A stretch of DNA of 64,000 nt from the human T2T-CHM13v2.0 reference genome, Homo sapiens, in NCBI GenBank assembly GCA_009914755.4, contig CP086569.2, forward strand, positions 29,408,001 to 29,472,000. Reading direction: 5' to 3'. The notes under the pieces were generated by a model that worked only from the letters and a program-made list of their open reading frames with translations, made no database searches and was not told the origin of the DNA. Below, piece by piece: positions 1-27,592 of the stretch; the first letter of the stretch is position 1, and each line of letters opens with the position of its first letter. Position numbers and translations under genes: made by a program.

Positions 1-3000
1 GACTGCAATAGAAAGGATTCGAATGGAATGAAAAAGAATTGAATGGAATAGAACAGAATGGAATCAAATCGAATGAAATGGAATGGAATAGAAAGGAATG
101 GAATGAAATGGAATGGAAAGGATTCGAATGGAATGCAATCGAATGGAATGGAATCGAACGGAATGGAATAAAATGGAAGAAAACTGGCAAGAAATGGAAT
201 CGAAATGAATGGAGTGTTACGGAACGGACTCAAAAGGAATTGAATGTAATAGAATGGAGTGGAGTGGACTCGAATATAATGGACTGGAATGGAATGAAAT
301 CATATGGAATGGGAACGAATGGAATAGAATGGAAAGGAATGGAATCGAATGGAAAGGAATCGAATGGAAGGGAATGAAATTGAATCAACAGGAATGGAAG
401 GGAATAGAATAGACGGTAATGGAATGGACTCGAATAGAATGGACACCAATGCTCAAATTGAATGGACTCGAATGGAATGGAAACGAAAGGAATGTCATCG
501 AATGGAATTGAATCGATTGGAATGAAATCGCATAGAATGGAGTGGAATCAAATGGAATTGAATCGAAAGGAAAGGAAGCGAATGGACTGAAATGAAATGG
601 AATGGAATTGAATGGAAAGTAATGCAATGGAATAGAATGGAACGAAATTTCACGGAATGGAATCAAACTGAATGGAATCAAATCAATGGAATCTAATCAA
701 ATGGAATGGAAAGGAATTGAATGGAGTAGATTGGATTGGATGGGATTGGAATGAAATGTACTGGAAAGGACTCGAATTTCATGAAACGGAATGGAATGAA
801 TTGGAACGGAATGGACTCGAATGGAATGGAATGTCATGGAATGGCATCAAATGGAATGGCATCAAATGGAATGGAATCGAATGCAATGGAATGCTATGGA
901 ATGGAATGGAATGCATTGGAATGGAATGTCCTCTAATGGAATGGATTCGAGTGGAATGGAATCGAATATAATGGAGTCGAATGAAATGGAATTGAAAGGA
1001 ATGGGATCGAATACAATGGAATATACTGGAATGTAATGTAATGAGCTGGAATGTAATTGACTGGAATGGAATGTACATGAATGGAATGTAATCGAATGGA
1101 AAGTAATCCAATGGAATAGAATCTAATGCAATAATATCGACTCAGATAGAGTAGAATGTAATGGAATGGAGTGCAGTGAAATGGAATGGAATGGAATGGA
1201 ATGCAATGGAATGGAATGGAATGGAATGGAATGGAATGGAATGGAATGGAATGGGATGGAATGGTGTGGAATGGATAGTAATGGACTGGAGTGAAATGGA
1301 GTGGAAAGGAATGGACTCAAATTGAAAGGGCTCGAAAGGAATGGAGTCAAATGGAATGGTATGGAATGGAATGAACACGAATGTAAGGCAATCCAATAGA
1401 ATGGAATCGAATGGCATGGAATATAAAGAAATGGAATCGAAGAGAATGGAAACAAATGGAATGGAATTGAATGGAATGGAATTGAATGGAATGGGAACGA
1501 ATGGAGTGAAATTGTATGCAATAGAAGAGAATAGAATGGAATGCAAGCGAAAGGAAAGGAATAGATTGGAATGGAATGGAATTCATTGGAATGGAAGGGA
1601 ATGTAGTGTAATGGACAGGCCTGGAATAAAGTGGAATGCTACGGTCTCGAATGGAATAAAAATGTATGGAATGGAATGCAATGAAACGGAATCGAATGTC
1701 ATAGAATGTAATGGAATGCAAAAAATTGGAATCCAAAATCATTGACTGGAAAGGCTGGGTGTCGAAAGGAATTGACTCCAATGGAATGGAATCGAATGGA
1801 ATGGAAGTGAATAGAATCGAACTAAATCGAATGGAATGGAATTGATAGGAACGGAATGGAAAGGAATGCAATGATTTGGCATGGAATGGAATCGAATGGC
1901 ATCGAATGGAATGGAATGGAATGCAATGGAATGGAATGTATTAGAATGTAATGAACTTTAATGGAATGTACTCGAATGGATTCGACTGGAATGGAATGTT
2001 CTGGAAGTGAATGGACTCCAATGGAATGGATTCGAAAGGAATGGAATCGTACGGAATGGAATCTAATGGAATGGAATTAAATGGAAATGAATCAAATTGA
2101 ATAGCACGGAATTGAATTGAATGGAATCGAATGCAATGGAATCTAATGAAACGGAAAGGAAAGGAATGGAATGGAATGGAATGGGCTGGAATGGAAAGGA
2201 ATCGAAACGAATGGAATGGAATCGAACTGAAGAGACTGGAATGGAATGCACTGGAATGGAAGGGAGTGTAATGGAAGGTTCTCGAAAAAAATGGAATCGA
2301 ATGGAATGGAATTGAATGGAACGGAATAGAGTCGAATGGAATTGAATGGAATGGAATGGACTAGAGTGAAATGGAATCGAACCACAAGGAATGGACAGGA
2401 ATAGAATGGTCTCGAATTGAATGGAATCGTATGGAATGGCATCAAACGGAATGGAATGGACAGCCACGGAATGGAATGCACTCGAATGCAATGGAGTCGA
2501 AACTAATGGACTGGAATAGAATGGACTCGACTGGTACGGACTCCAATGGAATGGAATCGAATGGAAGGGAATCGAACGGAATGGACTCGAAGGGAAAAGA
2601 CTGCAATGGAAAGGTCTCGAATGGAATGGAAATTAATGGAATGGAATGGAATCGAATGAAATGGAGTCAAAAGGAATGGAATCGAATGGCAAGAAATCGA
2701 ATGTAATGGAATCGCAAGGAATTGATGTGAACGGAACGGAATGGAATGGAATCCAAAGGAATGGAATAGAATGGAATGGAATCGAATGGAAAGGACTCGA
2801 ATGGAAATCACTCGAATAGAATGCAATTTAATAAAATAGGATCAAATGTAATGGAATGGAATGGAAAGGAATCGAAACGAAAGGAATGGAGACAGATGGA
2901 ATGGAATGGAACAGAGAGCAATGGTATAGAATGGAATGGAATCATCTGGAATGGAATTGAATGGAATGGAATAATATGAAATGGAATGGAATGGAATGGA

Positions 3001-3569
3001 ATGGAATGCCCTTGAATTAAATGGACTGGAATGGAATGGACTCGAACAGAGTGGAATGGAAAGTGTTGAGATAGAATGGAATGGACTCCTTTGGAATGGT
3101 GTAGTATGCAATGCAATCGACTGGCAGGGAATCAAAAGGAATGTAATCGAATGGATTGGAGTGGAATGCAATGGACTCGAATAGATTGGAAACGGAATGC
3201 AAAGGAATGGAATGGAATAGTATGGAATGGAATGGAAAGGAATGGAGTGGAATAGACTAGAGTGGAATGGAATGGACTGGAAAGCAATGGACTGGAATGG
3301 AACTTTATTGAATGGACTGGAATCAAACGGAATGGAATGCAATGCAATCAAATGGCATGGAATAAAATAGAATGAAAGAGAATCAAATGGAATTGAATCG
3401 AATGGAATCGAATGGATTGGAAAGGAATAGAATGGAATGGAATGGAATTGACTCAAATGGAATGGACTAGAATGGAATGGATTCGAATGGAAGGCAAAGG
3501 AATGGAATCTATTGGAATGGACTGTAATGGAATGGAATGGAAGGGATTGGAATGGACTCGAATGGAATG
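1..3569. repeat. HOR unit 1, full length (3569 bp), canonical
   Basis: The landmark 'gactgcaatagaaagg' at 1 recurs at 3570, and the ORF at 39..377 recurs at 3608..3946. Confidence 0.85.
1618..1621. other. HaeIII (GGCC) site inside the unit's most degenerate landmark block 'atggacaggcctggaataaagtggaatgctacggtctcg'. It is apparently the only GGCC per canonical unit.
   Basis: GGCC recurs at the same unit offset at 5202, 8726, 12294, 14013, 16412 and other positions. It is absent in unit 6, where the sequence is TGCC at 19961–19964. Confidence 0.7.
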
Positions 3570-7153: not shown

Positions 7154-10100
7154 GACTGCAATAGAAAGGATTCGAATGGAATGAAAAAGAATTGAATGGA
7201 AGAGAACAGAATGGAATCAAATCGAATGAAATGGAATGGAATAGAAAGGAATGGAATGAAATGGAATGGAAAGGATTCGAATGGAATGCAATCGAATGGA
7301 ATGGAATCGAACGGAATGGAATAAAATGGAAGAAAACTGGCAAGAAATGGAATCGAAATGAATGGAGTGTTATGGAACGGACTCAAAAGGAATTGAATGT
7401 AATAGAATGGAGTGGAGTGGACTCGAATATAATGGACTGGAATGGAATGAAATCACATGGAATGGGAACGAATGGAATGGAATGGAATGGAAGGGAATGA
7501 AATTGAATCAACAGGAATGGAAGGGAATAGAATAGACGGTAATGGAATGGACTCGAATAGAATGGACACGAATGCTCAAATTGAATGGACTCGAATGGAA
7601 TGGAAAAGAAAGGAATGTCACCGAATGGAATTGAATCGATTGAAATGAAATCGCATAGAATGGAGTGGAATCAAATGGAATTGAATCGAAAGGAAAGGAA
7701 GCGAATGGACTGAAATGAAATGGAATGGAATTGAATGGAAAGTAATGCAATGGAATAAAATGGAACGAAATTTCACGGAATGGAATCAAACTGAATGGAA
7801 TCAAATCAATGGAATATAATCAAATGGAATGGAAAGGAATAGAATGGAGTAGATTGGATTGGATGGGATTGGAATGAAATGGAATGGAAAGGACTCGAAT
7901 TTCAGGAAACAGAAGGGAATGAATTGGAACGGAATGGACTCGAATGGAATGGAATGTCATGGAATGGCATCAAATGGAATGGCATCAAATGGAATGGAAT
8001 CGAATGCACTGGAATGCTATGGAATGGAATGGAATGCATTGGAATGGAATGTCCTCTAATGGAATGGATTCGAGTGGAATGGAATCGAATATAATGGAGT
8101 CGAATGAAATGGAATTGAAATGAATGGGATCGAATACAATGGAATATACTGGAATGAAACGTAATGAACTCGAATGTAATTGACTGGAATGGGATGTACA
8201 TGAATGGAATGTAATCGAATGGAAAGTAATCCAATGGAATAGAATCCAATGCAATAAAATCGACTCAAATAGAATAGAATGTAATAGAATGGAGTGCAGT
8301 GCAATGGAATGGAATGGAATGGAAAGCAATGGAATGGAATGGAATGGCATGGAATAGAATGGGACGGAATGGTATGGAATGGATAGTAATGGACTGGAGT
8401 GAAATGGGCTGGAAAGCAATGGACTCAATTTGAAAGCGCTCGAAACGAATGGAGTCAAATGGAATGGTCCGGAATGGAATGAACACGAATGTAATGCAAT
8501 CCAATAGAATTGAATCGAATGGCATGGAATATAAAGAAATGGAATCGAAGAGAATGGAAACAAATGGAATGGAATTGAATGGAATGGAATTGAATGGAAT
8601 GGGAACGAATGGAGTGAAATTGTATGCAGCAGAAGAGTATAGAATGGAATGCAAGCAAAAGGAAAGGAATGGATTGGAATGGAATGGAATTCATTGGAAT
8701 GGAAGGGAATGTAGTGTAATGGACAGGCCTGGAATAAAGTGGAATGCTACGGTCTCGAATGGAATAAAAATGTATGGAATGGAACGCAATGAAACGGAAT
8801 CGAATGTCATAGAATGTAATGGAATGCAACAAAATGGAATCCAAATCATTGACTGGAAAGGCTGGGTGTCGAAAGGAATTGACTACAATGGAATGGAATC
8901 GAATGGAATGGAAGTGAGTAGAATCGAACTAAATCGAATGGAATGGAATTGATAGGAACGGAATGGAAAGGAATGCAATGATTTGGCATGGAAAGGAATC
9001 GAATGGCATCGAATGGAATGGAATGGAATGCAATGGAATGCAATGTATTAGAGTGAAATGAACTTTAATGGAATGTACTCGAATGGATTCGACTGGAATC
9101 GAATGTTCTGGAAGTGAATGGACTCCAATGGAATGGATTCGAAAGGAATGGAATCGAACGGAATGGAATCTAATGGACTGGAATTAAATGGAAACGAATC
9201 AAATTGAATAGCACGGAATTGAATTGAATGGAATCGAATGCAATGGAATCTAATGAAACGGAAAGGAAAGGAATGGAATGGAATGGGCTGGAATGGAATG
9301 GAATCGAAACGAATGGAATGGAATCGAACTGAAGAGACTGGAATGGAATGCACTGGAATGGAAGGGAGTGTAATGGAAGGTTCTCGAAAACAATGGAATC
9401 GAATGGAATGGAATTGAATGGAACGGAATAGAGTCGAATGGAATTGAATGGAATGGAATGGACTAGAGTGAAATGGAATCGAACCACAAGGAATGGACAG
9501 GAATAGAATGGTCTCGAATTGAATGGAATCGTATGGAATGGCATCAAACGGAATGGAATGGACAGCCACGGAATGGAATGCACTCGAATGCAATGGAGTC
9601 GAAACTAATGGACTGGAATAGAATGGACTCGACTGGTACGGACTCCAATGGAATGGAATCGAATGGAAGGGAATCGAACGGAATGGACTCGAAGGGAAAA
9701 GACTGCAATGGGAAGGTCTCGAATGGAATGGAAATTAATGGAGTGGAATGGAATGGAATCGAATGAAATGGAGTCAAAAGGAATGGAATCGAATGGCAAG
9801 AAATCGAATGTAATGGAAGCGCAAGGAATTGATGTGAACGGAACGGAATGGTATGGAATCCAAAGGAATGGAATAGAATGGAATGGAATCGAATGGAAAG
9901 GACTCGAATGGAAATCACTCGAATAGAATTCAATTTAATAAAACAGGATCAAATGTAATGGAATGGAATGGAAAGGAATCGAAACGAAAGGAATGGAGAC
10001 AGATGGAATGGAATGGAACAGAGAGCAATGGTATAGAATGGAATGGAATCATCTGGAATGGAATTGAATGGAATGGAATAATATGAAATGGAATGGAATG

Positions 10101-10671
10101 GAATGGAATGCCCTTGAATTAAATGGACTGGAATGGAATGGACTCGAACAGAGTGGAATGGAAAGTGTTGAAATAGAATGGAATGGACTCCTTTGGAATG
10201 GTGTAGTATGCAATGCAATCGACTGGCAGGGAATCAAAAGGAATGTAATCGAATGGATTGGACTGGAATGCAATGGACTCGAATAGATTGGAAACGGAAT
10301 GCAAAGGAATGGAATGGAATAGTATGGAATGGAATGGAAAGGAATGGAGTGGAATAGACTAGAGTGGAAAGGAATGGACTGGAAAGCAATGGACTGGAAT
10401 GGAACTTTCTTGAATGGACTGGAATCAAACGGAATGGAATGCAATGCAATCAAATGGCATGCAATAAAATAGAATGAAAGAGAATCAAATGGAATTGAAT
10501 CGAATGTAATCGAATGGATTGGAAAGGAATAGAATGGAATGGAATGGAATTGACTCAAATGGAATGGACTAGAATGGAATGGATTCGAATGGAAGGCAAA
10601 GGAATGGAATCTATTGGAATGGACTGTAATGGAATGGAATGGAAGAGATTGGAACGGACTCGAATGGAATG
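7154..10671. repeat. HOR unit 3, full length (3518 bp), with a contracted pentamer tract near 8290–8350 and private variants ('gaaagcgctcgaaacg')
   Basis: Landmarks are collinear with units 1 and 2. A shortened pentamer tract accounts for the roughly 50-bp length difference. Confidence 0.8.
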
Positions 10672-13600
10672 GACTGCAATAGAAAGGATTAGAAAGGAAT
10701 GAAAAAGAATTGAATGGAATAGAACAGAATGGAATCAAATCGAATGAAATGGAATGGAATAGAAAGGAATGGAATGAAATGGAATGGAAAGGATTCGAAT
10801 GGAATGCAATCGAATGGAATGCAATCGAACGGAATGGAATCGAACGGAATGGAATAAAATGGAAGAAAACTGGTAAGAAAAGGAATCGAAATGAATGGAG
10901 TGGTATGGAACGGATTCAAAAGGAATTGAATGTAATAGAATGGAGTGGAGTGGACTCGAATATAATGGACTGGAATGGAATGAAATCACATGGAATGGGA
11001 ACGAATGGAATGGAATGGAAAGGAATGGAATCGAATGGAAAGGAATCGAATGGAAGGGAATGAAATTGAATCAGCAGGAATGGAAGGGAGTAGAATAGAC
11101 GGAAATGGAATGGACTCGAAGAGAATGGACACGAATGCTCAAATTGAATGGACTCGAATGGAATGGAAAAGAAAGGAATGTCATCGAATGGAATTGAATC
11201 GATTGGAATGAAATCGCATGGAATGGAGTGGAATCAAATGGATTTGAATCGAAAGGAAAGGAAGCGAATGGACTGAAATGAAATGGAATGGAATTGAATG
11301 GAAAGTAATGCAATGGAATAGAATGGAACGAAATTTCACGGAATGGAATCAAACTGAATGGAATCAAATTAATGGAATATAATCAAATGGAATGGAAAGG
11401 AATTGAATGGAGTAGATTGGATTGGATGGGATTGGAATGAAATGTACTGGAAAGGACTCGCATTTCATGAAACGGAATGGAATGAATTGGAACGGAATGG
11501 ACTCGAATGGAATGGAATGTCATGGAATGGAATCAACTGGAATGGCATTAAATGGAATGGAATCGAATGCAATGGAATGCTATGCAATGGAATGGAATGC
11601 ATTGGAATGGAATGTCCTCTAATGGAATGGATTCGAGTGGAATGGAATCGAATATAATGGAGTCGAATGAAATGGAATTGAAAGGAATGGGATCGAATAC
11701 AATGGAATATAGTGGAATGTAACGTAATGAACTCGAATGTAATTGACTGAAATGGAATGTACATGAATGGAATGTAATCGAAAGGAAAGTAATCCAGTGC
11801 AATAGAATCTAATGCAATAAAATCGACTCAAATAGAATAGAATGTAATGGAATGGAGTACAGTGCAATGGAATGGAATGGAATGGATTGGAATGCAACGG
11901 AATGGAACGGAATAGAATGGAATAGAATGGGATGGAATGGTATGGAATGGATAGTAATGGACTGGAGTGAAATGGACTGGAAAGCAATGGACTCAAATTG
12001 AAAGCGCTCGAAACGAATGGAGTGAAATGGAATGGTCTGGAATCGAGTGAACACGAATGTAATGCAATCCAATAGAATGGAATCGAATGGCATGGAATAT
12101 AAAGAAATGGAATCGAAGAGAATGGAAACAGATGGAATGGAATTTAATGGAATGGAATTGAATGGAATGGGAACGAATGGAGTGAAATTGTATGCAGTAG
12201 AAGAGAATAGAATGGAATGCAAGCGAAAGGAAAGGAATGGATTGGAATGGAATGGAATTCATCGGAATGGAAGGGAATGTAGTGTAATGGACAGGCCTGG
12301 AATAAAGTGGAATGCTACGGTCTCGAAAGGAATAAAAATGTATGGAATGGAATGCAATGAAACGGAATCGAATGTCATAGAATGTAATGGAATGCAAAAA
12401 AATGGAATCCAGAATCATTGACTGGAAAGGCTGGGTGTCGAAAGGAATTGACTCCAATGGAATGGAATCGAATGGAATGGAAGTGAGTAGAATCAAACTA
12501 AATCGAATGGAATGGAATTGATAGGAACGGAATGGAAAGGAATGCAATGATTTGGCATGGAATGGAATCGAATGGCATCGAATGGAATGGAATGGAATGC
12601 AATGGAATGGAATGTATTAGAATGTAATGAACTTTAATGGAATGTACTCGAATGGATTCGACTGGAATGGAATGTTCTGGAAGTGAATGGACGCCAAAGG
12701 AATGGATTCGAAAGGAATGGAATCGAACGGAATGGAATCTAATGGAATGGAATTAAATGGAAATGAATCAAATTGAATAGCACGGAATTGAATTGAATGG
12801 AATCGAATGCAATGGAATCTAATGAAACGGAAAGGAAAGGAATGGAATTGAATGGAATGGGCTGGAATGGAAAGGAATCGAAACGAATGGAATGGAATCG
12901 AACTGAAGAGACTGGAATGGAATGCACTGGAATGAAAGGGAGTGTAATGGAAAGCTCTCGAAAAAAACGGAATCGAATGGATTGGAATTGAATGGAACGG
13001 AACAGAGTCGAATGGAATTCAATGGAATGGAATGGACTAGAGTGAAATGGAATCGAACCACAAGGAATGGAAAGGAATAGAATGGTATCGAATTGAATGG
13101 AATCGTATGGAATGGTATCAAACGGAATGGAATGGACAGCCACGGAATGGAATGCATTCGAATGCAATGGAGTCGAAGCTAATGGACTGGAATAGAATGG
13201 ACTCGACTGGTACGGACTCCAATGGAATGGAATCGAATGGAAGGGAATCGAACGGAATGGACTCGAAGGGAAAAGACTGCAATGGAAAGGTCTCGAATGG
13301 AATGGAAATTAATGGAATGGAATGGAATCGAATGAAATGGAGTCAAAAGGAATGGAATCGAATGCAAGAAATCGAATGTAATGGAATCGCAAGGAATTGA
13401 TGTGAACGGAACGGAATGGAATGGAATCCAAAGGAATGGAATAGAATGGAATGGAATCGAATGGAAAGGACTCGAATGGAAATCACTCGAATAGAATGCA
13501 ATTTAATAAAATAGGATCAAATGTAATGGAATGGAATGGAAAGGAATCGAAACGAAAGGAATGGAGACAGATGGAATGGAATGGAACAGAGAGCAATGGT

Positions 13601-14789
13601 ATAGAATGGAATGGAATCATCTGGAATGGAATTGAATGGAATGGAATGGGATGGAATGGTATGGAATGGATAGTAATGGACTGGAGTGAAATGGACTGGA
13701 AAGGAATGGACTCAAATTGAAAGGGCTCGAAAGGAATGGAGTCAAATGGAATGGTCTGGAATGGAATGAACACGAATGTAATGCAATCCAATAGAATGGA
13801 ATCGAATGGCATGGAATATAAAGAAATGGAATCGAAGAGAATGGAAACAAATGGAAAGGAATTGAATGGAATGGAATTGAATGGAATGGGAAGGAATGGA
13901 GTGAAATTGTATGCAGTAGAAGAGAATAGAATGGAATGCAAGCGAAAGGAAAGGAATGGGTTGGAATGGAATGGATTTCATTGGAATGGAAGGGAATGTA
14001 GTGTAATGGACAGGCCTGGAATAAAGTGGAATGCTACGGTCTCGAATGGAATAAAAATGTATGGAATGGTATGCAATGAAACGGAATCGAATGTCATAGA
14101 ATGTAATGGAATGCAAAAAAATGGAATCCAAAATCATTGACTGGAAAGTCTGGGTTTCGAAAGGAATTGACGCCAATGGAATGGAATCGAATGGAATGGA
14201 AGTGAATAGAATCGAACTAAATCGAATGGAATGGAATTGATAGGAACGGAATGGAAAGGAAAGCAATGATTTGGCATGGAATGGAATCGAATGGCATCGA
14301 ATGGAATGGAATAGAATGCAATGGAATGGAATGTATTAGAATGTAATGAACATTAATGGAATGTAATCGAATGGATTGGACTGGAATGCAATGGACTCGA
14401 ATAGATTGGAAACGGAATGCCAAGGAATGGAATGGAATAGTATGGAATGGAATGGAAAGGAATGGAGTGGAATAGACTAGAGTGGAATGGAATGGACTGG
14501 AAAGCAATGGACTGGAATGGAACTTTCTTGAATGGACTGGAATCAAACGGAATGGAATGCAATGCAATCAAATGGCATGGAATAAAATAGAATGAAAGAG
14601 AATCAAATGGAATTGAATCGAAGGGAATCGAATGGATTGGAAAGGAATAGAATGGAATGGAATGGAATTGACTCAAATGGAATGGACTAGAATGGAATGG
14701 ATTCGAATGGAAGGCAAAGGAATGGAATCTATTGGAATGGACTGTAATGGAATGGAATGGAAGGGATTGGAATGGACTCGAATGGAATG
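10672..14789. repeat. HOR unit 4, complex long variant (4118 bp). It reads as unit offsets 0–2975, then a second copy of offsets ~1245–1968, then offsets ~3145–3569.
   Basis: There are junctions at about 13647 and about 14362. The block containing the MESNGMVWNGM ORF appears twice (12032.. and 13736..). GGCC occurs twice, at 12294 and 14013. Confidence 0.75.
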
Positions 14790-17700
14790 GACTGCAATAG
14801 AAAGGATTCGAATGGAATGAAAAAGAATTGAATGGAATAGAACAGAATGGAATCAAATCGAATGAAATGGAATGGAATAGAAAGGAATGGAATGAAATGG
14901 AATGGAAAGGATTCGAATGGAATGCAATCGAATGGAATGGAATCGAACGGAATGGAATAAAATGGAAGAAAACTGGCAAGAAATGGAATCGAAATGAATG
15001 GAGTGTTATGGAACGGACTCAAAAGGAATTGAATGTAATAGAATGGAGTGGAGTGGACTCGAATATAATGGACTGGAATGGAATGAAATCACATGGAATG
15101 GGAACGAATGGAATGGAATGGAAAGGAATGGAATCGAATGGAAAAGAATCGAATGGAAGGGAATGAAATTGAATCAACAGGAATGGAAGGGAATAGAATA
15201 GACGTTAATGGAATGGACTCGAATAGAATGGACACGAATGCTCAAATTGAATGGACTCGAATGGAATGGAAACGAAAGTAATGTCATCGAATGGAATTGA
15301 ATCGATTGGAATGAAATCGCATAGAATGGAGTGGAATCAAATGGAATTGAATCGAAAGCAAAGGAAGCGAATGGACTGAAATGAAATGGAATGGAATTGA
15401 ATGGAAAGTAATGCAATGGAATAGAATGGAACGAAATTTCACGGAATGGAATCAAACTGAATGGAATCAAATCAATGGAATATAATCAAATGGAATGGAA
15501 AGGAATTGAATGGAGTAGATTGGATTGGATGGGATTGGAATGAAATGTACTGGAAAGGACTCGAATTTCATGAAACGGAATGGAATGAATTGGAACGGAA
15601 TGGACTCGAATGGAATGGAATGTCATGGAATGGCATCAAATGGAATGACATCAAATGGAATGGAATCGAATGCAATGGAATGCTATGGAATGGAATGGAA
15701 TGCATTGGACTGGAATGTCCTCTAATGGAATGGATTCGAGTGGAATGGAATCGAATATAATGGAGTCGAATGAAATGGAATTGCAAGGAACGGGATCGAA
15801 TACAATGGAATATACCGGAATGTAATGTAATGAACTCGAATGTAATTGACTGGAATGGAATGTACATGAATGGAATGTAATCGAATGGAAAGTAATCCAA
15901 TGGAATAGAATCTAATGTAATAAAATCGACTCAGATACAGTAGAATATAATGGAATGGAGTGAAGTGCAATGGAATGGAACGGAATGGAATGCAATGGAA
16001 TGGAATGGAATGGAATGGAATGGAATGGAATGGAATGGAATGGAATGGGATGGAATGGTATGGAATGGATAGTAATGGACTGGAGTGAAATGGACTGGAA
16101 ATGAATGGACTCAAATTGAAAGGGCTCGAAAGGAATGGAGTCAAATGGAATGGTCTGGAATGGAATGAACACGAATGTAATGCAATCCAATAGAATGGAA
16201 TCGAATGGCATGGAATATAAAGAAATGGAATCGAAGAGAATGGAAACAAATGGAATGGAATTGAATGGAATGGAATTGAATGGAATGGGAACGAATGGAG
16301 TGAAATTGTATGCAGTGGAAAAGAATAGAATGGAATGCAAGCGAAAGGAAAGGAATGGATTGGAATGGAATGGAATTCATTGGAATGGAAGGTAATGTAG
16401 TGTAATGGACAGGCCTGGAATAAAGTGGAATGCTACGGTCTCGAATGGAATAAAAATGTATGGAATGGAATGCAATGAAACGGAATCGAATGTCATAGAA
16501 TGTAATGGAATGCAAAAAAATGGAATCCAAAATCATTGACTGGAAAGGCTGGGTGTCGAAAGGAATTGACTCCAATGGAATGGAATCGAATGGAATGGAA
16601 GTGAATAGAATCGAACTAAATCGAATGGAATGGAATTGATAGGAACGGAATGGAAAGGAATGCAATGATTTGGCATGGAATGGAATCGAATGGCATCGAA
16701 TGGAATGGAATGGAATGGAATGTATTAGAATGTAATGAACTTTAATGGGATGTACTCGAATGGATTCGACTGGAATGGAATGTTCTGGAAGTGAATGGAC
16801 TCCAATGGAATGGATTCGAAAGGAATGGAATCGAACGGAATGGAATCTAATGGAATGGAATTAAATGGAAATGAATCAAATTGAATAGCACGGGATTGAA
16901 TTGAATGGAATCGAATGCAATGGAATCTAATGAAACGGAAAGGAAAGGAATGGAATGGAATGGAATGGGCTGGAATGGAAAGGAATCGAAACGAATGGAA
17001 TGGAATCGAACTGAAGAGACTGGAATGGAATGCACTGGAATGGAAGGGAGTGTAATGGAAGGTTCTCGACAAAAATGGAATCGAATGGAATGGAATTGAA
17101 TGGAACGGAATAGAGTGGAATGGAATTGAATGGAATGGAATGGACTAGAGTGAAATGGAATCGAACCACAAGGAATGGACAGGAATAGAATGGTCTCGAA
17201 TTGAATGGAATCGTATGGAATGGCATCAAACGGAATGGAATGGACAGCCACGGAATGGAATGCACTCGAATGCAATGGAGTCGAAACTAATGGACTGGAA
17301 TAGAATGGACTCGACTGGTACGGACTCCAATGGAATGGAATCGAATGGAAGGGAATCGAAAGGAATGGACTCGAAGGGAAAAGACTGCAATGGAAAGGTC
17401 TCGAATGGAATGGAAATTAATGGAATGGAATGGAATCGAATGAAATGGAGTCAAAAGGAATGGAATCGAATGGCAAGAAATCGAATGTAATGGAATCGCA
17501 AGGAATTGATGTGAACGGAACGGAATGGAATGGAATCCAAAGGAATGGAATAGAATGGAATGGAATCGAATGGAAAGGACTCGAATGGAAATCACTCGAA
17601 TAGAATGCAATTTAATAAAATAGGATCAAATGTAATGGAATGGAATGGAAAGGAATCGAAACGAAAGGAATGGAGACAGATGGAATGGAATGGAACAGAG

Positions 17701-18348
17701 AGCAATGGTATAGAATGGAATGGAATCATCTGGAATGGAATTGAATGGAATGGAATAATATGAAATGGAATGGAATGGAATGGAATGCCCTTGAATTAAA
17801 TGGACTGGAATGGAATGGACTCGATCAGAGTGGAATGGAAAGTGTTGAGATAGAATGGAATGGACTCCTTTGGAATGGTGTAGTATGCAATGCAATCGAC
17901 TGGCAGGGAATCAAAAGGAATGTAATCGAATGGATTGGACTGGAATGCAATGGACTCGAATAGATTGGAAACGGAATGCAAAGGAATGGAATGGAATAGT
18001 ATGGAATGGAATGGAAAGGAATGGAGTGGAATAGACTAGAGTGGAATGGAATGGACTCGAAAGCAATGGACTGGAATGGAACTTTCTTGAATGGACTGGA
18101 ATCAAACGGAATGGAATGCAATGCAATCAAATGGCATGGAATAAAATAGAATGAAAGAGAATCAAATGGAATTGAATCGAATGGAATCGAATGGATTGGA
18201 AAGGAATAGAATGGAATGGAATGGAATTGACTCAAATGGAATGGACTAGAATGGAATGGATTCGAATGGAAGGCAAAGGAATGGAATCTATTGGAATGGA
18301 CTGTAATGGAATGGAATGGAAGGGATTGGAATGGACTCGAATGGAATG
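14790..18348. repeat. HOR unit 5, full length (3559 bp)
   Basis: Collinear with unit 1. Confidence 0.85.
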
Positions 18349-21300
18349 GACTGCAATAGAAAGGATTCGAATGGAATGAAAAAGAATTGAATGGAATAGA
18401 ACAGAATGGAATCAAATCGAATGAAATGGAATGGAATAGAAAGGAATGGAATGAAATGGAATGGAAAGGATTCGAATGGAATGCAATCGAATGGAATGGA
18501 ATCGAACGGAATGGAATAAAATGGAAGAAAACTGGCAAGAAATGGAATCGAAATGAATGGAGTGTTATGGAACGGACTCAAAAGGAATTGAATGTAATAG
18601 AATGGAGTGGAGTGGACTCGAATATAATGGACTGGAATGGAATGAAATCACATGGAATGGGAACGAATGGAATGGAATGGAAAGGAATGGAATCGAATGG
18701 AAAGGAATCGAATGGAAGGGAATGAAATTGAATCAACAGGAATGGAAGGGAATAGAATAGACGGTAATGGAATGGACTCGAATAGAATGGACACGAATGC
18801 TCAAATTGAATGGACTCGAATGGAACGGAAACGAAAGGAATGTCATCGAATGGAATTGAATCGATTGGAATGAAATCGCATAGAATGGAGTGGAATCAAA
18901 TGGAATTGAATCGAAAGCAAAGGAAGCGAATGGACTGAAATGAAATGGAATGGAATTGAATGGAAAGTAATGCAATGGAATAGAATGGAACGAAATTTCA
19001 CGGAATGGAATCAAACTGAATGGAATCAAATCAATGGAATATAATCAAATGGAATGGAAAGGAATTGAATGGAGTAGATTGGATTGGATGGGATTGGAAT
19101 GAAATGTACTGGAAAGGACTCGAATTTCATGAAACGGAATGGAATGAATTGGAACGGAATGGACTCGAATGGAATGGAATGTCATGGAATGGCATCAAAT
19201 GGAATGACATCAAATGGAATGGAATCGAATGCAATGGAATGCTATGGAATGGAATGGAATGCATTGGACTGGAATGTCCTCTAATGGAATGGATTCGAGT
19301 GGAATGGAATCGAATATAATGGAGTCGAATGAAATGGAATTGAAAGGAACGGGATCGAATACAATGGAATATACCGGAATGTAATGTAATGAACTCGAAT
19401 GTAATTGACTGGAATGGAATGTACATGAATGGAATGTAATCGAATGGAAAGTAATCCAATGGAATAGAATCTAATGTAATAAAATGGACTCAGATAGAGT
19501 AGAATATAATGGAATGGAGTGAAGTGCAATGGAATGGAACGGAATGGAATGCAATGGAATGGAATGGAATGGAATGGAATGGAATGGAATGGAATGGGAT
19601 GGAATGGTATGGAATGGATAGTAATGGACTGGAGTGAAATGGACTGGAAATGAATGGACTCAAATTGAAAGGGCTCGAAAGGAATGGAGTCAAATGGAAT
19701 GGTCTGGAATGGAATGAACACGAATGTAATGCAATCCAATAGAATGGAATCGAATGGCATGGAATATAAAGAAATGGAATCGAAGAGAATGGAAACAAAT
19801 GGAATGGAATTGAATGGAATGGAATTGAATGGAATGGGAACGAATGGAGTGAAATTGTATGCAGTGGAAAAGAATAGAATGGAATGCAAGCGAAAGCAAA
19901 GGAATGGATTGGAAAGGAATGGAATTCATTGGAATGGAAGGGAATGTAGTGTAATGGACATGCCTGGAATAAAGTGGAATGCTACGGTCTCGAATGGAAT
20001 AAAAATGTATGGAATGGAATGCAATGAAACGGAATCGAATGTCATAGAATGTAATGGAATGCAAAAAAATGGAATCCAAAATCATTGACTGGAAAGGCTG
20101 GGTGTCGAAAGGAATTGACTCCAATGGAATGGAATCGAATGGAATGGAAGTGAATAGAATCGAACTAAATCGAATGGAATGGAATTGATAGGAACGGAAT
20201 GGAAAGGAATGCAATGATTTGGCATGGAATGGAATCGAATGGCATCGAATGGAATGGAATGGAATGGAATGTATTAGAATGTAATGAACTTTAATGGGAT
20301 GTACTCGAATGGATTCGACTGGAATGGAATGTTCTGGAAGTGAATGGACTCCAATGGAATGGATTCGAAAGGAATGGAATCGAACGGAATGGAATCTAAT
20401 GGAATGGAATTAAATGGAAATGAATCAAATTGAATAGCACGGAATTGAATTGAATGGAATCGAATGCAATGGAATCTAATGAAACGGAAAGGAAAGGAAT
20501 GGAATGGAATGGAATGGGCTGGAATGGAAAGGAATCGAAACGAATGGAATGGAATCGAACTGAAGAGACTGGAATGGAATGCACTGGAATGGAAGGGAGT
20601 GTAATGGAAGGTTCTCGACAAAAATGGAATCGAATGGAATGGAATTGAATGGAACGGAATAGAGTCGAATGGAATTGAATGGAATGGAATGGACTAGAGT
20701 GAAATGGAATCGAACCACAAGGAATGGACAGGAATAGAATGGTCTCGAATTGAATGGAATCGTATGGAATGGCATCAAACGGAATGGAATGGACAGCCAC
20801 GGAATGGAATGCACTCGAATGCAATGGAGTCGAAACTAATGGACTGGAATAGAATGGACTCGACTGGTACGGACTCCAATGGAATGGAATCGAATGGAAG
20901 GGAATCGAACGGAATGGACTCGAAGGGAAAAGACTGCAATGGAAAGGTCTCGAATGGAATGGAAATTAATGGAATGGAATGGAATCGAATGAAATGGAGT
21001 CAAAAGGAATGGAATCGAATGGCAAGAAATCGAATGTAATGGAATCGCAAGGAATTGATGTGAACGGAACGGAATGGAATGGAATCCAAAGGAATGGAAT
21101 AGAATGGAATGGAATCGAATGGAAAGGACTCGAATGGAAATCACTCGAATAGAATGCAATTTAATAAAATAGGATCAAATGTAATGGAATGGAATGGAAA
21201 GGAATCGAAACGAAAGGAATGGAGACAGATGGAATGGAATGGAACAGAGAGCAATGGTATAGAATGGAATGGAATCATCTGGAATGGAATTGAATGGAAT

Positions 21301-21897
21301 GGAATAATATGAAATGGAATGGAATGGAATGGAATGCCCTTGAATTAAATGGACTGGAATGAAATGGACTCGATCAGAGTGGAATGGAAAGTGTTGAGAT
21401 AGAATGGAATGGACTCCTTTGGAATGGTGTAGTATGCAATGCAATCGACTGGCAGGGAATCAAAAGGAATGTAATCGAATGGATTGGACTGGAATGCAAT
21501 GGACTCGAATAGATTGCAAACGGAATGCAAAGGAATGGAATGGAATAGTATGGAATGGAATGGAAAGGAATGGAGTGGAATAGACTAGAGTGGAATGGAA
21601 TGGACTCGAAAGCAATGGACTGGAATGGAACTTTCTTGAATGGACTGGAATCAAACGGAATGGAATGCAATGCAATCAAATGGCATGGAATAAAATAGAA
21701 TGAAAGAGAATCAAATGGAATTGAATCGAATGGAATCGAATGGATTGGAAAGGAATAGAATGGAATGGAATGGAATTGACTCAAATGGAATGGACTAGAA
21801 TGGAATGGATTCGAATGGAAGGCAAAGGAATGGAATCTATTGGAATGGACTGTAATGGAATGGAATGGAAGGGATTGGAATGGACTCGAATGGAATG
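18349..21897. repeat. HOR unit 6, full length (3549 bp). Its HaeIII site is mutated (GGCC to TGCC at 19961–19964).
   Basis: Collinear with unit 1. The sequence reads 'ggacatgcctgg' where other units have 'ggacaggcctgg'. Confidence 0.85.
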
Positions 21898-24747
21898 GAC
21901 TGCAATAGAAAGGATTCGAATGGAATGAAAAAGAATTGAATGGAATAGAACACAATGGAATCAAATCGAATGAAATGGAATGGAATAGAAAGGAATGGAA
22001 TGAAATGGAATGGAAAGGATTCGAATGGAATGCAATCGAATGGAATGGAATCGAACGGAATGGAATAAAATGGAAGAAAACTGGCAAGAAATGGAATCGA
22101 AATGAATGGAGTGTTATGGAACGGACTCAAAAGGAATTGAATGTAATAGAATGGAGTGGAGTGGACTCGAATATAATGGACTGGAATGGAATGAAATCAC
22201 ATGGAATGGGAACGAATGGAATGGAATGGAAAGGAATGGAATCGAATGGAAAGGAATCGAATGGAAGGGAATGAAATTGAATCAACAGGAATGGAAGGGA
22301 ATAGAATAGACGGTAATGGAATGGACTCGAATAGAATGGACACGAATGCTCAAATTGAATGGACTCGAATGGAATGGAAACGAAAGGAATGTCATCGAAT
22401 GGAATTGAATCGATTGGAATGAAATCGCATAGAATGGAGTGGAATCAAATGGAATTGAATCGAAAGCAAAGGAAGCGAATGGACTGAAATGAAATGGACT
22501 CAAATTGAAAGGGCTCGAAAGGAATGGAGTCAAATGGAATGGTCTGGAATGGAGTGAACACGAATGTAATGCAATCCAATAGAATGGAATCGAATGGCAT
22601 GGAATATAAAGAAATGGAATCGAAGAGAATGGAAACAAATGGAATGGAATTGAATGGAATGGAATTGAATGGAATGGGAACGAATGGAGTGAAATTGTAT
22701 GCAGTAGAAGAGAATAGAATGGAATGCAAGCGAAAGGAAAGGAATGGATTGGAATGGAATGGAATTCATTGGAATGGAAGGGAATGTAGTGTAATGGACA
22801 GGCCTGGAATAAAGTGGAATGCTACGGTCTCGAATTGAATAAAAATGTATGGAATGGAATGCAATGAAACGGAATCGAATGTCATAGAATGTAATGGAAT
22901 GCAAAAAATTGGAATCCAAAATCATTGACTGGAAAGGCTGGGTGTCGAAAGGAATTGACTCCAATGGAATGGAATCGAATGGAATGGAAGTGAATAGAAT
23001 CGAACTAAATCGAATGGAATGGAATTGATAGGAACGGAATGGAAAGGAATGCAATGATTTGGCATGGAGTGGAATCGAATGGCATCGAATGGAATGGAAT
23101 GGAATGCAATGGAATGGAATGTATTAGAATGTAATGAACATTAATGGAATGTACTCGAATGGATTCGACTGGCATGGAATGTTCTGGAAATGAATGGAAT
23201 CCAATGGAATGGATTCAAAAGGAATGGAATCGTACGGAATGGAATCTAATGGAATGGAATTAAATGGAAATGAATCAAATTGAATAGCACGGAATTGAAT
23301 TGAATGGAATCGAATGCAATGGAATCTAATGAAACGGAAAGGAAAGGAATGGAATGGAATGGAATGGGCTGGAATGGAAAGGAATCGAAACGAATGGAAT
23401 GGAATCGAACTGAAGAGACTGGAATGGAATGCACTGGAATGGAAGGGAGTGTAATGGAAGGTTCTCGACAAAAATGGAATCGAATGGAATGGAATTGAAT
23501 GGAACGGAATAGAGTCGAATGGAATTGAATGGAATGGAATGGACTAGAGTGAAATGGAATCGAACCACAAGGAATGGACAGGAATAGAATGGTCTCGAAT
23601 TGAATGGAATCGTATGGAATGGCATCAAACGGAATGGAATGGACAGCCACGGAATGGAATGCACTCGAATGCAATGGAGTCGAAACTAATGGACTGGAAT
23701 AGAATGGACTCGACTGGTACGGACTCCAATGGAATGGAATCGAATGGAAGGGAATCGAATGGAATGGACTCGAAGGGAAAAGACTGCAATGGAAAGGTCT
23801 CGAATGGAATGGAAATTAATGGAATGGAATGGAATCGAATGAAATGGAGTCAAAAGGAATGGAATCGAATGGCAAGAAATCGAATGTAATGGAATCGCAA
23901 GGAATTGATGTGAACGGAACGGAATGGAATGGAATCCAAAGGAATGGAATAGAATGGAATGGAATCGAATGGAAAGGACTCGAATGGAAATCACTAGAAT
24001 AGAAAGCAATTTAATAAAATAGGATCAAATGTAATGGAATGGAATGGAAAGGAATCGAAACGAAAGGAATGGAGACAGATGGAATGGAATGGAACAGAGA
24101 GCAATGGTATAGAATGGAATGGAATCATCTGGAATGGAATTGAATGGAATGGAATAATATGAAATGGAATGGAATGGAATGGAATGCCTTTGAATTAAAT
24201 GGACTGGAATGGAATGGACTCGAACAGAGTGGAATGGAAAGTGATGAGATAGAATGGAATGGACTCGTTTGGAATGGTGTAGTATGCAATGTAATCGACT
24301 GGCAGGGAATCAAAAGGAATGTAATCGAATGGATTGTACTGGAATGCAATGGACTCGAATAGATTGGAAACGGAATGCAAAGGAATGGAATGGAATAGTA
24401 TGGAATGGAATGGAAAGAAATGGAGTGGAATAGACTAGAGTGGAATGGAATGGACTGGAAAGCAATGGACTGGAATGGAACTTTCTTGAATGGACTGGAA
24501 TCAAACGGAATGGAATGCAATGCAATCAAATGGCATGGAATAAAATAGAATGAAAGAGAATCAAATGGAATTGAATCGAATGGAATCGAATGGATTGGAA
24601 AGGAATAGAATGGAATGGTATGGAATTGACTCAAATGGAATGGACTAGAATGGAATGGATTCGAATGGAAGGCAAAGGAATGGAATCTATTGGAATGGAC
24701 TGTAATGGAATGGAATGGAAGGGATTGGAATGGACTCGAATGGAATG
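21898..24747. repeat. HOR unit 7, short variant (2850 bp) lacking about 710 bp (unit offsets ~600–1310)
   Basis: The deletion junction lies at about 22486–22500, 'gactgaaatgaaatgga|ctcaaattgaaaggg'. It fuses two reference ORFs into the single ORF 22282..22638. Confidence 0.8.
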
Positions 24748-27592
24748 GACTGCAATAGAAAGGATTCGAATGGAATGAAAAAGAATTGAATGGAATAGAA
24801 CACAATGGAATCAAATCGAATGAAATGGAATGGAATAGAAAGGAATGGAATGAAATGGAATGGAAAGGATTCGAATGGAATGCAATCGAATGGAATGGAA
24901 TCGAACGGAATGGAATAAAATGGAAGAAAACTGGCAAGAAATGGAATCGAAATGAATGGAGTGTTATGGAACGGACTCAAAAGGAATTGAATGTAATAGA
25001 ATGGAGTGGAGTGGACTCGAATATAATGGACTGGAATGGAATGAAATCACATGGAATGGGAACGAATGGAATGGAATGGAAAGGAATGGAATCGAATGGA
25101 AAGGAATCGAATGGAAGGGAATGAAATTGAATCAACAGGAATGGAAGGGAATAGAATAGACGGTAATGGAATGGACTCGAATAGAATGGACACGAATGCT
25201 CAAATTGAATGGACTCGAATGGAATGGAAACGAAAGGAATGTCATCGAATGGAATTGAATCGATTGGAATGAAATCGCATAGAATGGAGTGGAATCAAAT
25301 GGAATTGAATCGAAAGCAAAGGAAGCGAATGGACTGAAATGAAATGGACTCAAATTGAAAGGGCTCGAAAGGAATGGAGTCAAATGGAATGGTCTGGAAT
25401 GGAGTGAACACGAATGTAATGCAATCCAATAGAATGGAATCGAATGGCATGGAATATAAAGAAATGGAATCGAAGAGAATGGAAACAAATGGAATGGAAT
25501 TGAATGGAATGGAATTGAATGGAATGGGAACGAATGGAGTGAAATTGTATGCAGTAGAAGAGAATAGAATGGAATGCAAGCGAAAGGAAAGGAATGGATT
25601 GGAATGGAATGGAATTCATTGGAATGGAAGGGAATGTAGTGTAATGGACAGGCCTGGAATAAAGTGGAATGCTACGGTCTCGAATGGAATAAAAATGTAT
25701 GGAATGGAATGCAATGAAACGGAATCGAATGTCATAGAATGTAATGGAATGCAAAAAATTGGAATCCAAAATCATTGACTGGAAAGGCTGGGTGTCGAAA
25801 GGAATTGACTCCAATGGAATGGAATCGAATGGAATGGAAGTGAATAGAATCCAACTAAATCGAATGGAATGGAATTGATAGGAACGGAATGGAAAGGAAT
25901 GCAATGATTTGGCATGGAGTGGAATCGAATGGCATCGAATGGAATGGAATGGAATGCAATGGAATGGAATGTATTAGAATGTAATGAACATTAATGGAAT
26001 GTACTCGAATGGATTCGACTGGCATGGAATGTTCTGGAAGTGAATGGAATCCAATGGAATGGATTCAAAAGGAATGGAATCGTACGGAAAGGAATCTAAT
26101 GGAATGGAATTAAATGGAAATGAATCAAATTGAATAGCACGGAATTGAATTGAATGGAATCGAATGCAATGGAATCTAATGAAACGGAAAGGAAAGGAAT
26201 GGAATGGAATGGGCTGGAATGGAAAGGAATCGAAACGAATGGAATGGAATCGAACTGAAGAGACTGGAATGGAATGCACTGGAATGGAAGGGAGTGTAAT
26301 GGAAGGTTCTCGACAAAAATGGAATCGAATGGAATGGAATTGAATGGAACGGAATAGAGTGGAATGGAATTGAATGGAATGGAATGGACTAGAGTGAAAT
26401 GGAATCGAACCACAAGGAATGGACAGGAATAGAATGGTCTCGAATTGAATGGAATCGTATGGAATGGCATCAAACGGAATGGAATGGACAGTCACGGAAT
26501 GGAATGCATTCGAATGCAATGGAGTCGAAACTAATGGACTGGAATAGAATGGACTCGACTGGTACGAACTCCAATGGAATGGAATCGAATGGAAGGGAAT
26601 CGAACGGAATGGACTCGAAGGGAAAAGACTGCAATGGAAAGGTCTCGAATGGAATGGAAATTAATGGAATGGAATGGAATCGAATGAAATGGAGTCAAAA
26701 GGAATGGAATCGAATGGCAAGAAATCGAATGTAATGGAATCGCAAGGAATTGATGTGAACGGAACGGAATGGAATGGAATCCAAAGGAATGGAATCGAAT
26801 GGAATGGAATCGAATGGAAAGGACTCGAATGGAAATCACTCGAATAGAATGCAATTTAATAAAATAGGATCAAATGTAATGGAATGGAATGGAAAGGAAT
26901 CGAAACGAAAGGAATGGAGACAGATGGAATGGAATGGAACAGAGAGCAATGGTATAGAATGGAATGGAATCATCTGGAATGGAATTGAATGGAATGGAAA
27001 AATATGAAATGGAATGGAATGGAATGGAATGTCCTTGAATTAAATGGACTGGCATGGAATGGACTCGAACAGAGTGGAATGGAAAGTGTTGAAATAGAAT
27101 GTAATGGACTCCTTTGGAATGGTCTAGTATGCAATGCAATCGACTGGCAGGGAATCAAAAGGAATGTAATCGAATGGATTGGACTGGAATGCAATGGACT
27201 CGAATAGATTGGAAACGGAAAGCAAAGGAATGGAATGGAATAGTATGGAATGGAATGGAAAGGAATGGAGTGGAATAGACTAGAGTGGAATGGAATGGAC
27301 TCGAAAGCAATGGACTGTAATGGAACTTTCTTGAATGGACTGGAATCAAACGGAATGGAATGCAATGCAATCAAATGGCATGGAATAAAATAGAATGAAA
27401 GAGAATCAAATGGAATTGAATCGAATGGAATCGAATGGATTGGAAAGGAATAGAATGGAATGGAATGGAATTGACTCAAATGGAATGGACTAGAATGGAA
27501 TGGATTCGAATGGAAGGCAAAGGAATGGAATCTATTGGAATGGACTGTAATGGAATGGAATGGAAGGGATTGGAATGGACTCGAATGGAATA
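24748..27592. repeat. HOR unit 8, short variant (2845 bp)
   Basis: Same junction as unit 7 (fused ORF 25132..25488). Near-identical to unit 7. Confidence 0.8.

What the first reader, a model, noticed from the sequence alone, without database searches (positions are those of the whole stretch)
10672..14789. Complex 4.1-kb unit built by re-insertion of a ~720-bp internal segment
Unit 4 follows the normal order up to offset ~2975 (about 13647). It then jumps back to offset ~1245 ('ggaatgggatggaatggtatggaatggatagtaatgg') and replays about 720 bp, including a second GGCC at 14013. At about 14362 it jumps forward to offset ~3145. The forward jump occurs within a ~27-bp imperfect homology, 'ggaatgtactcgaatggattcgactgg' versus 'ggaatgtaatcgaatggattggagtgg'. 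The second copy of the block looks canonical, whereas the first copy carries unit-3-like private variants ('gaaagcgctcgaaacg'). This points to out-of-register exchange between different units rather than a simple intra-unit duplication.
Basis: seen in the sequence. Interest (0 to 1): 0.55.

Follow-up and report, generated by a model that had tools for sequence, protein, structure and literature searches.

The report
Rearranged 4.1-kb DYZ1 satellite repeat unit
One repeat unit of the human Y-chromosome satellite DYZ1 carries a second, out-of-place copy of about 710 bp of itself in place of about 160 bp; this is a real but ordinary by-product of how tandem satellites shuffle, with no sign of function.

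Summary
The window is (GGAAT)n-derived satellite with a ~3.55-kb higher-order unit and fits DYZ1/HSat3A6. Unit 4 (10672-14789, 4118 bp) follows the canonical order to consensus ~2952. It then replays consensus ~1233-1949 (13647-14354, a copy of 11928-12635 at an offset of exactly 1719 bp), then jumps to consensus ~3113. About 160 bp is lost. There are two GGCC sites (12294, 14013), giving HaeIII fragments of 1719 and 2399 bp.

Both new joints lie in short homology: 14 bp perfect at the first, and 8 bp perfect within a 25/27 match at the second. That is far more than random breakpoints give.

The two copies differ at 24 of 708 sites and share no derived variant, so this is not a recent self-copy. 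The unit-3-like variants in the first copy are real but could be a short conversion tract.

The best reading is a homology-guided, out-of-register repair or exchange among DYZ1 repeats. I favour one patch-type event over two separate unequal crossovers, but cannot decide between them here. Neither junction was found in 42 outside DYZ1 contigs.

Two other rearranged unit types sit in the same window: eight complete 2.84-kb deletion units plus one cut by the window end, and one 3.44-kb unit. Interest is low.

The parts
10672..14789 (+). Unit 4: a 4118-bp structural variant of the ~3.55-kb DYZ1/HSat3A6 higher-order unit (GGAAT on the + strand)
   Evidence: Unit boundaries from the anchor GACTGCAATAGAAAGGATT; chain against the canonical unit
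11928..12635 (+). Copy A: the resident, in-register copy of the duplicated block (consensus ~1233-1949). It has 13 non-consensus sites, 4 shared only with unit 3
13647..14354 (+). Copy B: the out-of-place second copy of the block, sitting where ~160 bp of the canonical unit (consensus ~2953-3112) is missing. It has 11 non-consensus sites, 9 private
13634..13647 (+). Junction 1 overlap: GAATGGAATGGAAT, 14 bp identical in both joined parts of the unit (25/26 over 13622-13647). This is the back-jump from consensus ~2952 to ~1233
   Evidence: chance control (P of at least 14 bp = 0.0023)
14358..14384 (+). Junction 2 homology: perfect overlap GGAATGTA (14358-14365) at the 5' edge of a 27-bp 25/27 match. 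This is the forward jump from consensus ~1949 to ~3113
   Evidence: chance control (P of at least 8 bp = 0.027; a 31-bp window with at least 27 matches = 0.0012)
12639..12665 (+). Resident counterpart of the junction-2 homology at the end of copy A (GGAATGTACTCGAATGGATTCGACTGG)
12294..12297 (.). First HaeIII site (GGCC) of unit 4, in copy A
14013..14016 (.). Second HaeIII site (GGCC) of unit 4, in copy B; the resulting fragments are 1719 and 2399 bp

Best explanation
Unit 4 is a non-functional structural variant of the human Y-chromosome satellite DYZ1 (HSat3A6). A break or gap in the region of consensus ~2953-3112 of one repeat was most likely repaired by copying from an out-of-register DYZ1 template.

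The proposed steps are these. The broken end paired at a 14-bp run of perfect GGAAT repeats with consensus ~1233 of a repeat on the sister chromatid or the same chromatid. About 710 bp was copied. The new strand then re-annealed to the far side of the gap through a 27-bp near-match (consensus ~1942-1968 versus ~3113-3139). The result is a 708-bp patch that replaces ~160 bp and adds a second HaeIII site.

Shown here: the structure, the homology at both joints, and the divergence between the two copies. Inferred: that it was one event (a conversion or template-switch type) rather than two, and that the template was not the resident copy as it now stands.

The variant then persisted in a poorly homogenised part of the array. 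Unit 4 is the most diverged unit in the window.
For: - **Structure.** Two non-allelic joints lie about 720 bp apart in one unit.
- **Homology at both joints.** It exceeds what random breakpoint pairs in the same unit give: P(at least 14 bp perfect) = 0.0023, P(at least 8 bp) = 0.027, P(at least 27/31) = 0.0012.
- **Other rearrangements in the window have one joint each.** The 2.84-kb deletion type and the unit-18 619-bp tandem duplication each have a single joint. Two independent joints falling in one of 19 units is therefore less parsimonious than one event with two switches.
- **No intermediate seen.** No unit carries only junction 1 or only junction 2, either in the window or in 42 outside DYZ1 loci.
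- **The copies are not close relatives.** They differ at 24 of 708 sites and share no derived site. Each is closer to units 2, 14 and 15 than to the other copy.
- **Identity of the satellite.** Period-5 GAATG; units of 3518-3584 bp with one GGCC each; 33 copies of the HSat3A6-diagnostic 24-mer and none of 10 other HSat3 subfamily 24-mers (24-mers from PMC4022460); unit 1 is 3569 bp, the modal HaeIII fragment reported for DYZ1.
- **Background from the literature.** Gene conversion and sister-chromatid exchange are documented in Yq12.
Against: - One sequence cannot separate a one-step patch from two successive unequal crossovers whose intermediate was lost.
- No donor carrying copy B's private variants was found, so the inter-unit origin is unproven.
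- The 24 differences could have accumulated in place after an old intra-unit copy. At the published Yq12 rate of 3.86e-7 per bp per generation that would take about 44,000 generations.
- Short homologies are common in a pentamer satellite, so the homology at the joints, though above chance, does not identify the pathway.
- No read-level support could be checked.
Confidence: 0.5

Rival explanations
1. Two successive unequal crossovers (sister-chromatid or intrachromatid). The first, between consensus ~2952 of one unit and ~1233 of another, made a ~5.26-kb unit with a 1.7-kb internal duplication. The second, between the 27-bp near-matches at ~1942 and ~3113, deleted ~1.18 kb, leaving 4118 bp. 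The order could also be reversed, through a 2.37-kb unit.
For: Unequal exchange is the classical mechanism of satellite turnover and is the one invoked for Yq12. Both joints lie in homology. Under this route copy B would be the only remnant of a third unit lineage, which fits its private variants and the lack of sharing with copy A. The non-consensus site density changes along the unit: ~26 per kb up to ~13170, 1 site in 13172-13671, and 4 in the 435 bp right of copy B. That hints at several lineage switches.
Against: It needs two independent non-allelic joints within one unit, while every other rearranged unit type in the 64 kb has one joint. No intermediate or reciprocal product is present in the window or in 42 outside loci. 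The mosaic signal is weak (post hoc P about 0.01, and that region is also less variable in other units).
Confidence: 0.27
2. An old intra-unit duplication: replication slippage or template switching on the same template, or on an in-register sister. Copy B was copied from copy A when both were consensus-like. The copies then diverged in place, and copy A later took a short conversion tract from unit 3.
For: Both copies carry similar loads of private changes (8 and 9). These are similar to the rest of the very diverged unit 4: 15 private substitutions per kb in the left part and 12.7 per kb in copy B. Three of the four unit-3-like sites cluster within 30 bp, as a conversion tract would. There is no indel between the copies.
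Against: It requires an age of about 44,000 generations at the published Yq12 rate without homogenisation or loss. It also requires an extra conversion event to explain the unit-3 sharing.
Confidence: 0.15
3. An assembly artefact: a false join or expansion in a highly repetitive array.
For: Yq12 is the hardest part of the Y chromosome to assemble. The variant occurs once in the window and was not found in outside contigs.
Against: Assembler misjoins arise across long near-identical overlaps and are in register. Here the joints share only 14 and 8 bp and are out of register. Copy B carries 9 bases seen in no other unit of the window, so it is not a re-used local read. The outside contigs are mostly collapsed short-read consensus sequences, which would not show a rare unit, and they also lack the 2.84-kb type that makes up 8 of 19 units here.
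Confidence: 0.05

Closest known systems
DYZ1 / HSat3A6, the ~3.56-kb HaeIII repeat of human Yq12 (described in PMC4022460, 10.1101/2022.12.01.518724 and 10.1101/2022.12.01.518658)
   Same: Pentamer GGAAT/CATTC base, ~3.55-kb nested unit with one HaeIII site, the HSat3A6-diagnostic 24-mer, a 3569-bp unit present, and 38-40% G+C.
   Different: Unit 4 is 4118 bp with two HaeIII sites, an internal 708-bp repeat and a ~160-bp loss. I found no description of this form in the papers I could search.
Structural variants of alpha-satellite higher-order repeats made by out-of-register unequal crossover between monomers (my own knowledge of the Warburton/Willard work and the T2T centromere studies; not re-read here)
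   Same: Units of a tandem array gain or lose internal segments through exchange at short internal homologies. The variants can stay single or be amplified, as the 2.84-kb type is here.
   Different: Alpha-satellite variants differ by whole 171-bp monomers and have one joint per event. Here the internal repeat is a degenerate pentamer, the homologies are 8-27 bp, and the unit has two non-allelic joints.
Templated-insertion or template-switch rearrangements (SDSA with an ectopic template, FoSTeS/MMBIR; my own knowledge)
   Same: A copied patch from a nearby template replaces a shorter stretch, with microhomology at both joints.
   Different: Those models were defined on unique-sequence loci with known donors. 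Here the donor is unidentified, and the background of short homology is high.
The 2.7-kb composite repeat at the Yq11/Yq12 transition (77% DYZ1-like, 23% DYZ18-like; 10.1101/2022.12.01.518658)
   Same: A DYZ1-derived unit of non-canonical length created by rearrangement.
   Different: That repeat joins two satellite families and is amplified into its own array. Unit 4 is purely DYZ1 and occurs once in this window.

Membership tests
DYZ1 / HSat3A6 satellite | Built from diverged copies of the pentamer GGAAT (CATTC) | tested here: met
   TRF reports period 5, consensus GAATG, 12772 copies over 21-63965
DYZ1 / HSat3A6 satellite | Nested higher-order unit of ~3.56 kb with one HaeIII (GGCC) site per unit | tested here: met
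   The commonest 24-mer distance is 3549. Ten units measure 3518-3584 bp, and unit 1 is 3569 bp, the modal virtual HaeIII fragment in Hallast et al.
DYZ1 / HSat3A6 satellite | Carries HSat3A6-specific 24-mers and not those of other HSat3 subfamilies | tested here: met
   TCGTTTCGATTCCTTTCCATTCCA occurs 33 times (minus strand). The example 24-mers of 10 other HSat3 subfamilies occur 0 times (24-mers from PMC4022460). Only one diagnostic 24-mer per subfamily was available
DYZ1 / HSat3A6 satellite | Located in human Yq12, male-specific | not testable with these tools
   No human assembly is searchable here. Indirect support: contaminant contigs in metagenomes and microbial assemblies are 97-99.5% identical to the window consensus over whole units
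Product of a single unequal crossover | One non-allelic joint per unit, giving a simple tandem duplication or a simple deletion | tested here: not met
   Unit 4 has two non-allelic joints (2952|1233 and 1949|3113). By contrast, the 2.84-kb units and unit 18 have one each
Product of two successive unequal crossovers | An intermediate or reciprocal unit (5.26 kb, 2.37 kb or 1.84 kb) exists or existed | tested here: inconclusive
   Each junction core occurs only once, both in unit 4, and in none of 42 outside loci. The sample is far too small to exclude this route
Templated patch (ectopic conversion / template switching) | Homology or microhomology at both ends of the copied patch | tested here: met
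   14 bp perfect (25/26) at one end, and 8 bp perfect within 25/27 at the other. Both are above the random-breakpoint expectation
Templated patch (ectopic conversion / template switching) | An identifiable donor that matches the patch, with recipient flanks of one lineage | tested here: inconclusive
   The nearest in-window relatives of copy B are units 2, 14 and 15 (14-15 differences), not copy A (24). Its 9 private bases were found nowhere. The flank lineage signal is weak

The most novel reading that the evidence does not exclude
The 708-bp patch was laid down in a single break-repair event with two template switches. If so, unit 4 would be a preserved footprint showing that conversion-type or replication-based repair, and not only unequal crossover, reshapes the internal structure of DYZ1 units in Yq12 heterochromatin. 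It might be old enough (about 1 million years if the copies diverged in place) to serve as a positional marker shared across human Y lineages.
Probability: 0.4. Interest if true: 0.3.

Novelty: new member of a known kind. Interest (0 to 1): 0.17.

Why it matters
It matters little on its own. It is one more structural variant of a well-known satellite, produced by the kind of homology-guided exchange already held to drive satellite evolution.

Its modest value is as a marker and a test case:
- The two junction sequences are unique k-mers that could be tracked across the roughly 200 available Y assemblies. That would date the event, locate a donor, and show whether rearranged DYZ1 units arise by one-step patch repair or by serial crossovers.
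- The 1.72-kb and 2.40-kb HaeIII fragments it predicts would hide under or near the DYZ2 band in classical digests.

Tried and rejected
- **The repeat finder on unit 4** was swamped by the pentamer background (hundreds of 60-70% 'copies') and gave nothing usable. I replaced it with exact 14-, 20- and 24-mer chaining.
- **Internal paralogy.** I looked for a long ancient sub-repeat of the DYZ1 unit that could explain the breakpoints. No 60-bp window exceeds 54/60, and the best ones are plain GGAAT runs, so the joints do not lie in long internal paralogues.
- **Shared breakpoints.** I asked whether the duplicated block (consensus ~1233-1949) is the reciprocal of the ~703-bp deletion in the 2.84-kb units (ref ~602-1304). 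The breakpoints differ, so it is not.
- **Exact junction searches.** These found nothing in metagenome contigs, prokaryote genome contigs or viral contigs. Positive controls showed that DYZ1 is present in the first two collections. Those contigs are mostly collapsed consensus units, so the negative result is weak.
- **A fuzzy junction search** allowing up to 2 mismatches was useless, because the junction-2 core differs from the canonical sequence by exactly two bases. I redid it as an exact search.
- **ORFs and RNA families.** The ORFs are pentamer-driven low complexity (IPFHS and NGMEW repeats), and no Rfam family reaches its threshold.
- **Literature.** I found no description of a 4.1-kb or a 2.84-kb DYZ1 unit.
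Full report
**1. What the window is**

The whole 64 kb is one satellite. TRF reports a period-5 array with consensus GAATG over 21-63965. G+C is 38-40% with strong G-over-C skew throughout.

Above the pentamer there is a higher-order period. The commonest distance between repeated 24-mers is 3549 bp, and GGCC (HaeIII) occurs about once per period. With the anchor GACTGCAATAGAAAGGATT the window divides into 19 complete units and one partial unit. Their lengths, in order, are 3569, 3584, 3518, 4118, 3559, 3549, 2850, 2845, 2835, 3563, 2835, 3563, 3539, 3549, 3548, 2844, 2835, 3438 and 2835 bp.

The satellite fits DYZ1/HSat3A6 of human Yq12:
- The 24-mer that Altemose et al. list as diagnostic for HSat3A6 (PMC4022460) occurs 33 times. 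The example 24-mers of ten other HSat3 subfamilies do not occur at all.
- Unit 1 is 3569 bp. That is the most abundant virtual HaeIII fragment of DYZ1 in six of the seven analysed genomes with a fully assembled Yq12 (10.1101/2022.12.01.518658).

The chromosomal location itself cannot be tested with these tools.

**2.

I chained unique 14-mers of each unit against a canonical unit (unit 6). Unit 4 runs ref 1->2944, back to 1238->1941, then forward to 3123->3540.

Within unit 4, 342 exact 20-mers recur at the single offset 1719. The next best offset has 9. No other unit exceeds 22, except unit 18, which carries a different duplication.

The duplicated stretch is at most 11915-12646 versus 13634-14365 (707/732 identical, no indel). 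Its core is 11928-12635 (copy A) versus 13647-14354 (copy B), 684/708 identical. About 160 bp of the canonical unit (consensus ~2953-3112) is missing.

GGCC lies at 12294 and 14013.

**3. The joints**

- **Junction 1.** The sequence follows the ~2950 region through ...CATCTGGAATGGAATTGAATGGAATGGAAT and continues GGGATGGAATGGTATGG from the ~1233 region. The two parents are identical over GAATGGAATGGAAT (13634-13647, 14 bp) and match 25/26 over 13622-13647.
- **Junction 2.** The parents share GGAATGTA (14358-14365) at the 5' edge of a 25/27 match (GGAATGTACTCGAATGGATTCGACTGG versus GGAATGTAATCGAATGGATTGGACTGG). Both diagnostic bases after the overlap are of the ~3113 type.
- **Chance control.** For 200,000 random breakpoint pairs in the canonical unit, perfect overlap of at least 8 bp occurs in 2.7%, of at least 14 bp in 0.23%, and at least 27/31 identity in 0.12%.

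Both joints are therefore homology-associated beyond chance. They do not lie in any long internal paralogue of the unit.

**4. Relationship of the two copies**

- Copy A and copy B differ by 24 substitutions (3.4%). Each is closer to units 2, 14, 15, 1 and 13 than to the other copy.
- At no site do both copies carry the same non-consensus base.
- Copy A has 13 non-consensus sites. Eight are private.
- Copy B has 11 non-consensus sites, 9 of them private. Copy B is therefore not 'canonical'.
- None of these private bases appears in 23 outside copies of the block.

Unit 4 as a whole is the most diverged unit in the window: 2.4-3.3% from every other unit, against 0.1-2% for most other pairs. It has 15 private substitutions per kb in its left part and 12.7 per kb in copy B.

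Two readings fit these facts:
- Copy B came from another unit lineage.
- The duplication is old, and both copies diverged in place.

Under the second reading, the published Yq12 rate of 3.86e-7 per bp per generation (PMC12240836) gives roughly 44,000 generations. This is a crude figure, because part of that rate is itself gene conversion.

The unit-3-like cluster in copy A does not decide between the readings. A short in-register conversion tract between neighbours would produce it.

**5. Mechanism**

A single unequal crossover gives one non-allelic joint, and unit 4 has two, about 720 bp apart. That leaves two routes:
- One repair event copied an out-of-register template and returned. This would be ectopic conversion by synthesis-dependent strand annealing, or replication-based template switching.
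- Two separate unequal crossovers happened, and their intermediate (5.26 kb or 2.37 kb) has been lost.

I favour the one-event route, at about 0.5 against about 0.27, for two reasons:
- The other rearranged unit types in this window each have a single joint.
- No unit in the window or in the outside loci has either junction alone.

This is an argument from parsimony, not a demonstration.

The density of non-consensus sites drops from ~26 per kb (10672-13171) to 1 site in 13172-13671, and is 4 in the 435 bp to the right of copy B. This hints at a mosaic. The signal is weak, because the test is post hoc (P about 0.01) and that region is less variable in other units too.

An assembly artefact is unlikely for three reasons, but it cannot be excluded without reads:
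- The joints are out of register.
- The joints share only 8-14 bp.
- Copy B carries bases found in no other unit of the window or outside copy checked.

**6. Outside sequences**

The exact junction sequences were absent from metagenome contigs, prokaryote genome contigs and viral contigs.

Searches with only the canonical half of each junction served as positive controls. They returned 36 metagenome loci and 6 contigs filed under bacterial or archaeal genomes. The 16 of these loci that I compared with the consensus are mostly 96-99.5% identical to it, many over whole units; two short contigs match at about 93%. These are human DYZ1 contamination.

None of them has either junction, and none has the junction of the 2.84-kb type. 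Most are collapsed short-read consensus units, so this shows only that the 4.1-kb form is not a common DYZ1 form.

**7. Comparison with what is known, and verdict**

DYZ1, its ~3.56-kb unit, its evolution by unequal exchange, sister-chromatid exchange in Yq12 and interlocus gene conversion there are all documented. I found no description of a 4.1-kb unit in the searchable literature.

The finding is a real, correctly described structural variant. It is a new instance of a known kind of event, with no coding or RNA signal and no reason to expect a function. Its use would be as a traceable marker of repair history in Yq12. I score interest low.

Noticed in passing
window 21898-30427, 33991-36825, 51025-56703, 60142-64000 (units 7, 8, 9, 11, 16, 17, 19 and partial unit 20): Seven complete units, plus the partial unit 20, are a 2.84-kb form of the DYZ1 unit that lacks ref ~602-1304 (~703 bp). 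All share one junction, TGAAATGAAATGGACTCAAATTGAAA, which lies in a short imperfect homology (AATGGA core). Unit 18 (listed separately) carries the same deletion. The junction is absent from 42 outside DYZ1 loci. I found no 2.84-kb DYZ1 form in the papers searched.
   Followed up: partly
window 56704-60141 (unit 18, 3438 bp): A second complex unit: a 2.84-kb-type unit with a simple tandem duplication at offset 619 bp (ref 97-601 plus 1305-1432, repeated). The copies are 557/565 identical. There is one joint, in a ~10-bp overlap (GAAATGGAAT). It is much younger-looking than the unit-4 duplication.
   Followed up: partly
window 27593-40388 (units 9-12): A 6398-bp super-repeat (2835 + 3563 bp) is present twice in tandem. 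Unit 9 versus 11 and unit 10 versus 12 each differ by 0.1%, so the pair of unlike units was recently duplicated as a block. Units 5/6 (0.5%) and 14/15 (0.4%) are also recent neighbour copies.
   Followed up: partly
window ~19980 (unit 6, position orthologous to the GGCC of other units): Unit 6 has lost its HaeIII site (GGACATGCCTGG instead of GGACAGGCCTGG). This gives a 6389-bp GGCC-to-GGCC interval from 16412 to 22801.
   Followed up: yes
window 7154-14789 and 40389-43927 (units 3, 4, 13): Three units are much more diverged than their neighbours: 11-15 private substitutions per kb, against 0.4-5 for the rest. The window therefore mixes old, unhomogenised units with recently copied ones.
   Followed up: partly
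window 13172-13671 and 14355-14789: The ~480 bp just left of junction 1 and the 435 bp right of copy B carry very few non-consensus bases (1 and 4), against ~26 per kb in the first 2.5 kb of unit 4. This may be a mosaic of lineages within the unit. Statistically it is weak.
   Followed up: partly
loci L037-L042 (e.g. BMRF01000076.1 Actinomadura cremea JCM 3308, 3637 bp; CAYVXY010000078.1 Polyangiaceae MAG, 3604 bp) and L001-L036: Contigs deposited as bacterial or archaeal genome sequence, and many metagenome contigs, are human DYZ1 satellite. The best are 99.0-99.5% identical to the window consensus over whole ~3.6-kb contigs, so they are male human contamination in those assemblies.
   Followed up: partly
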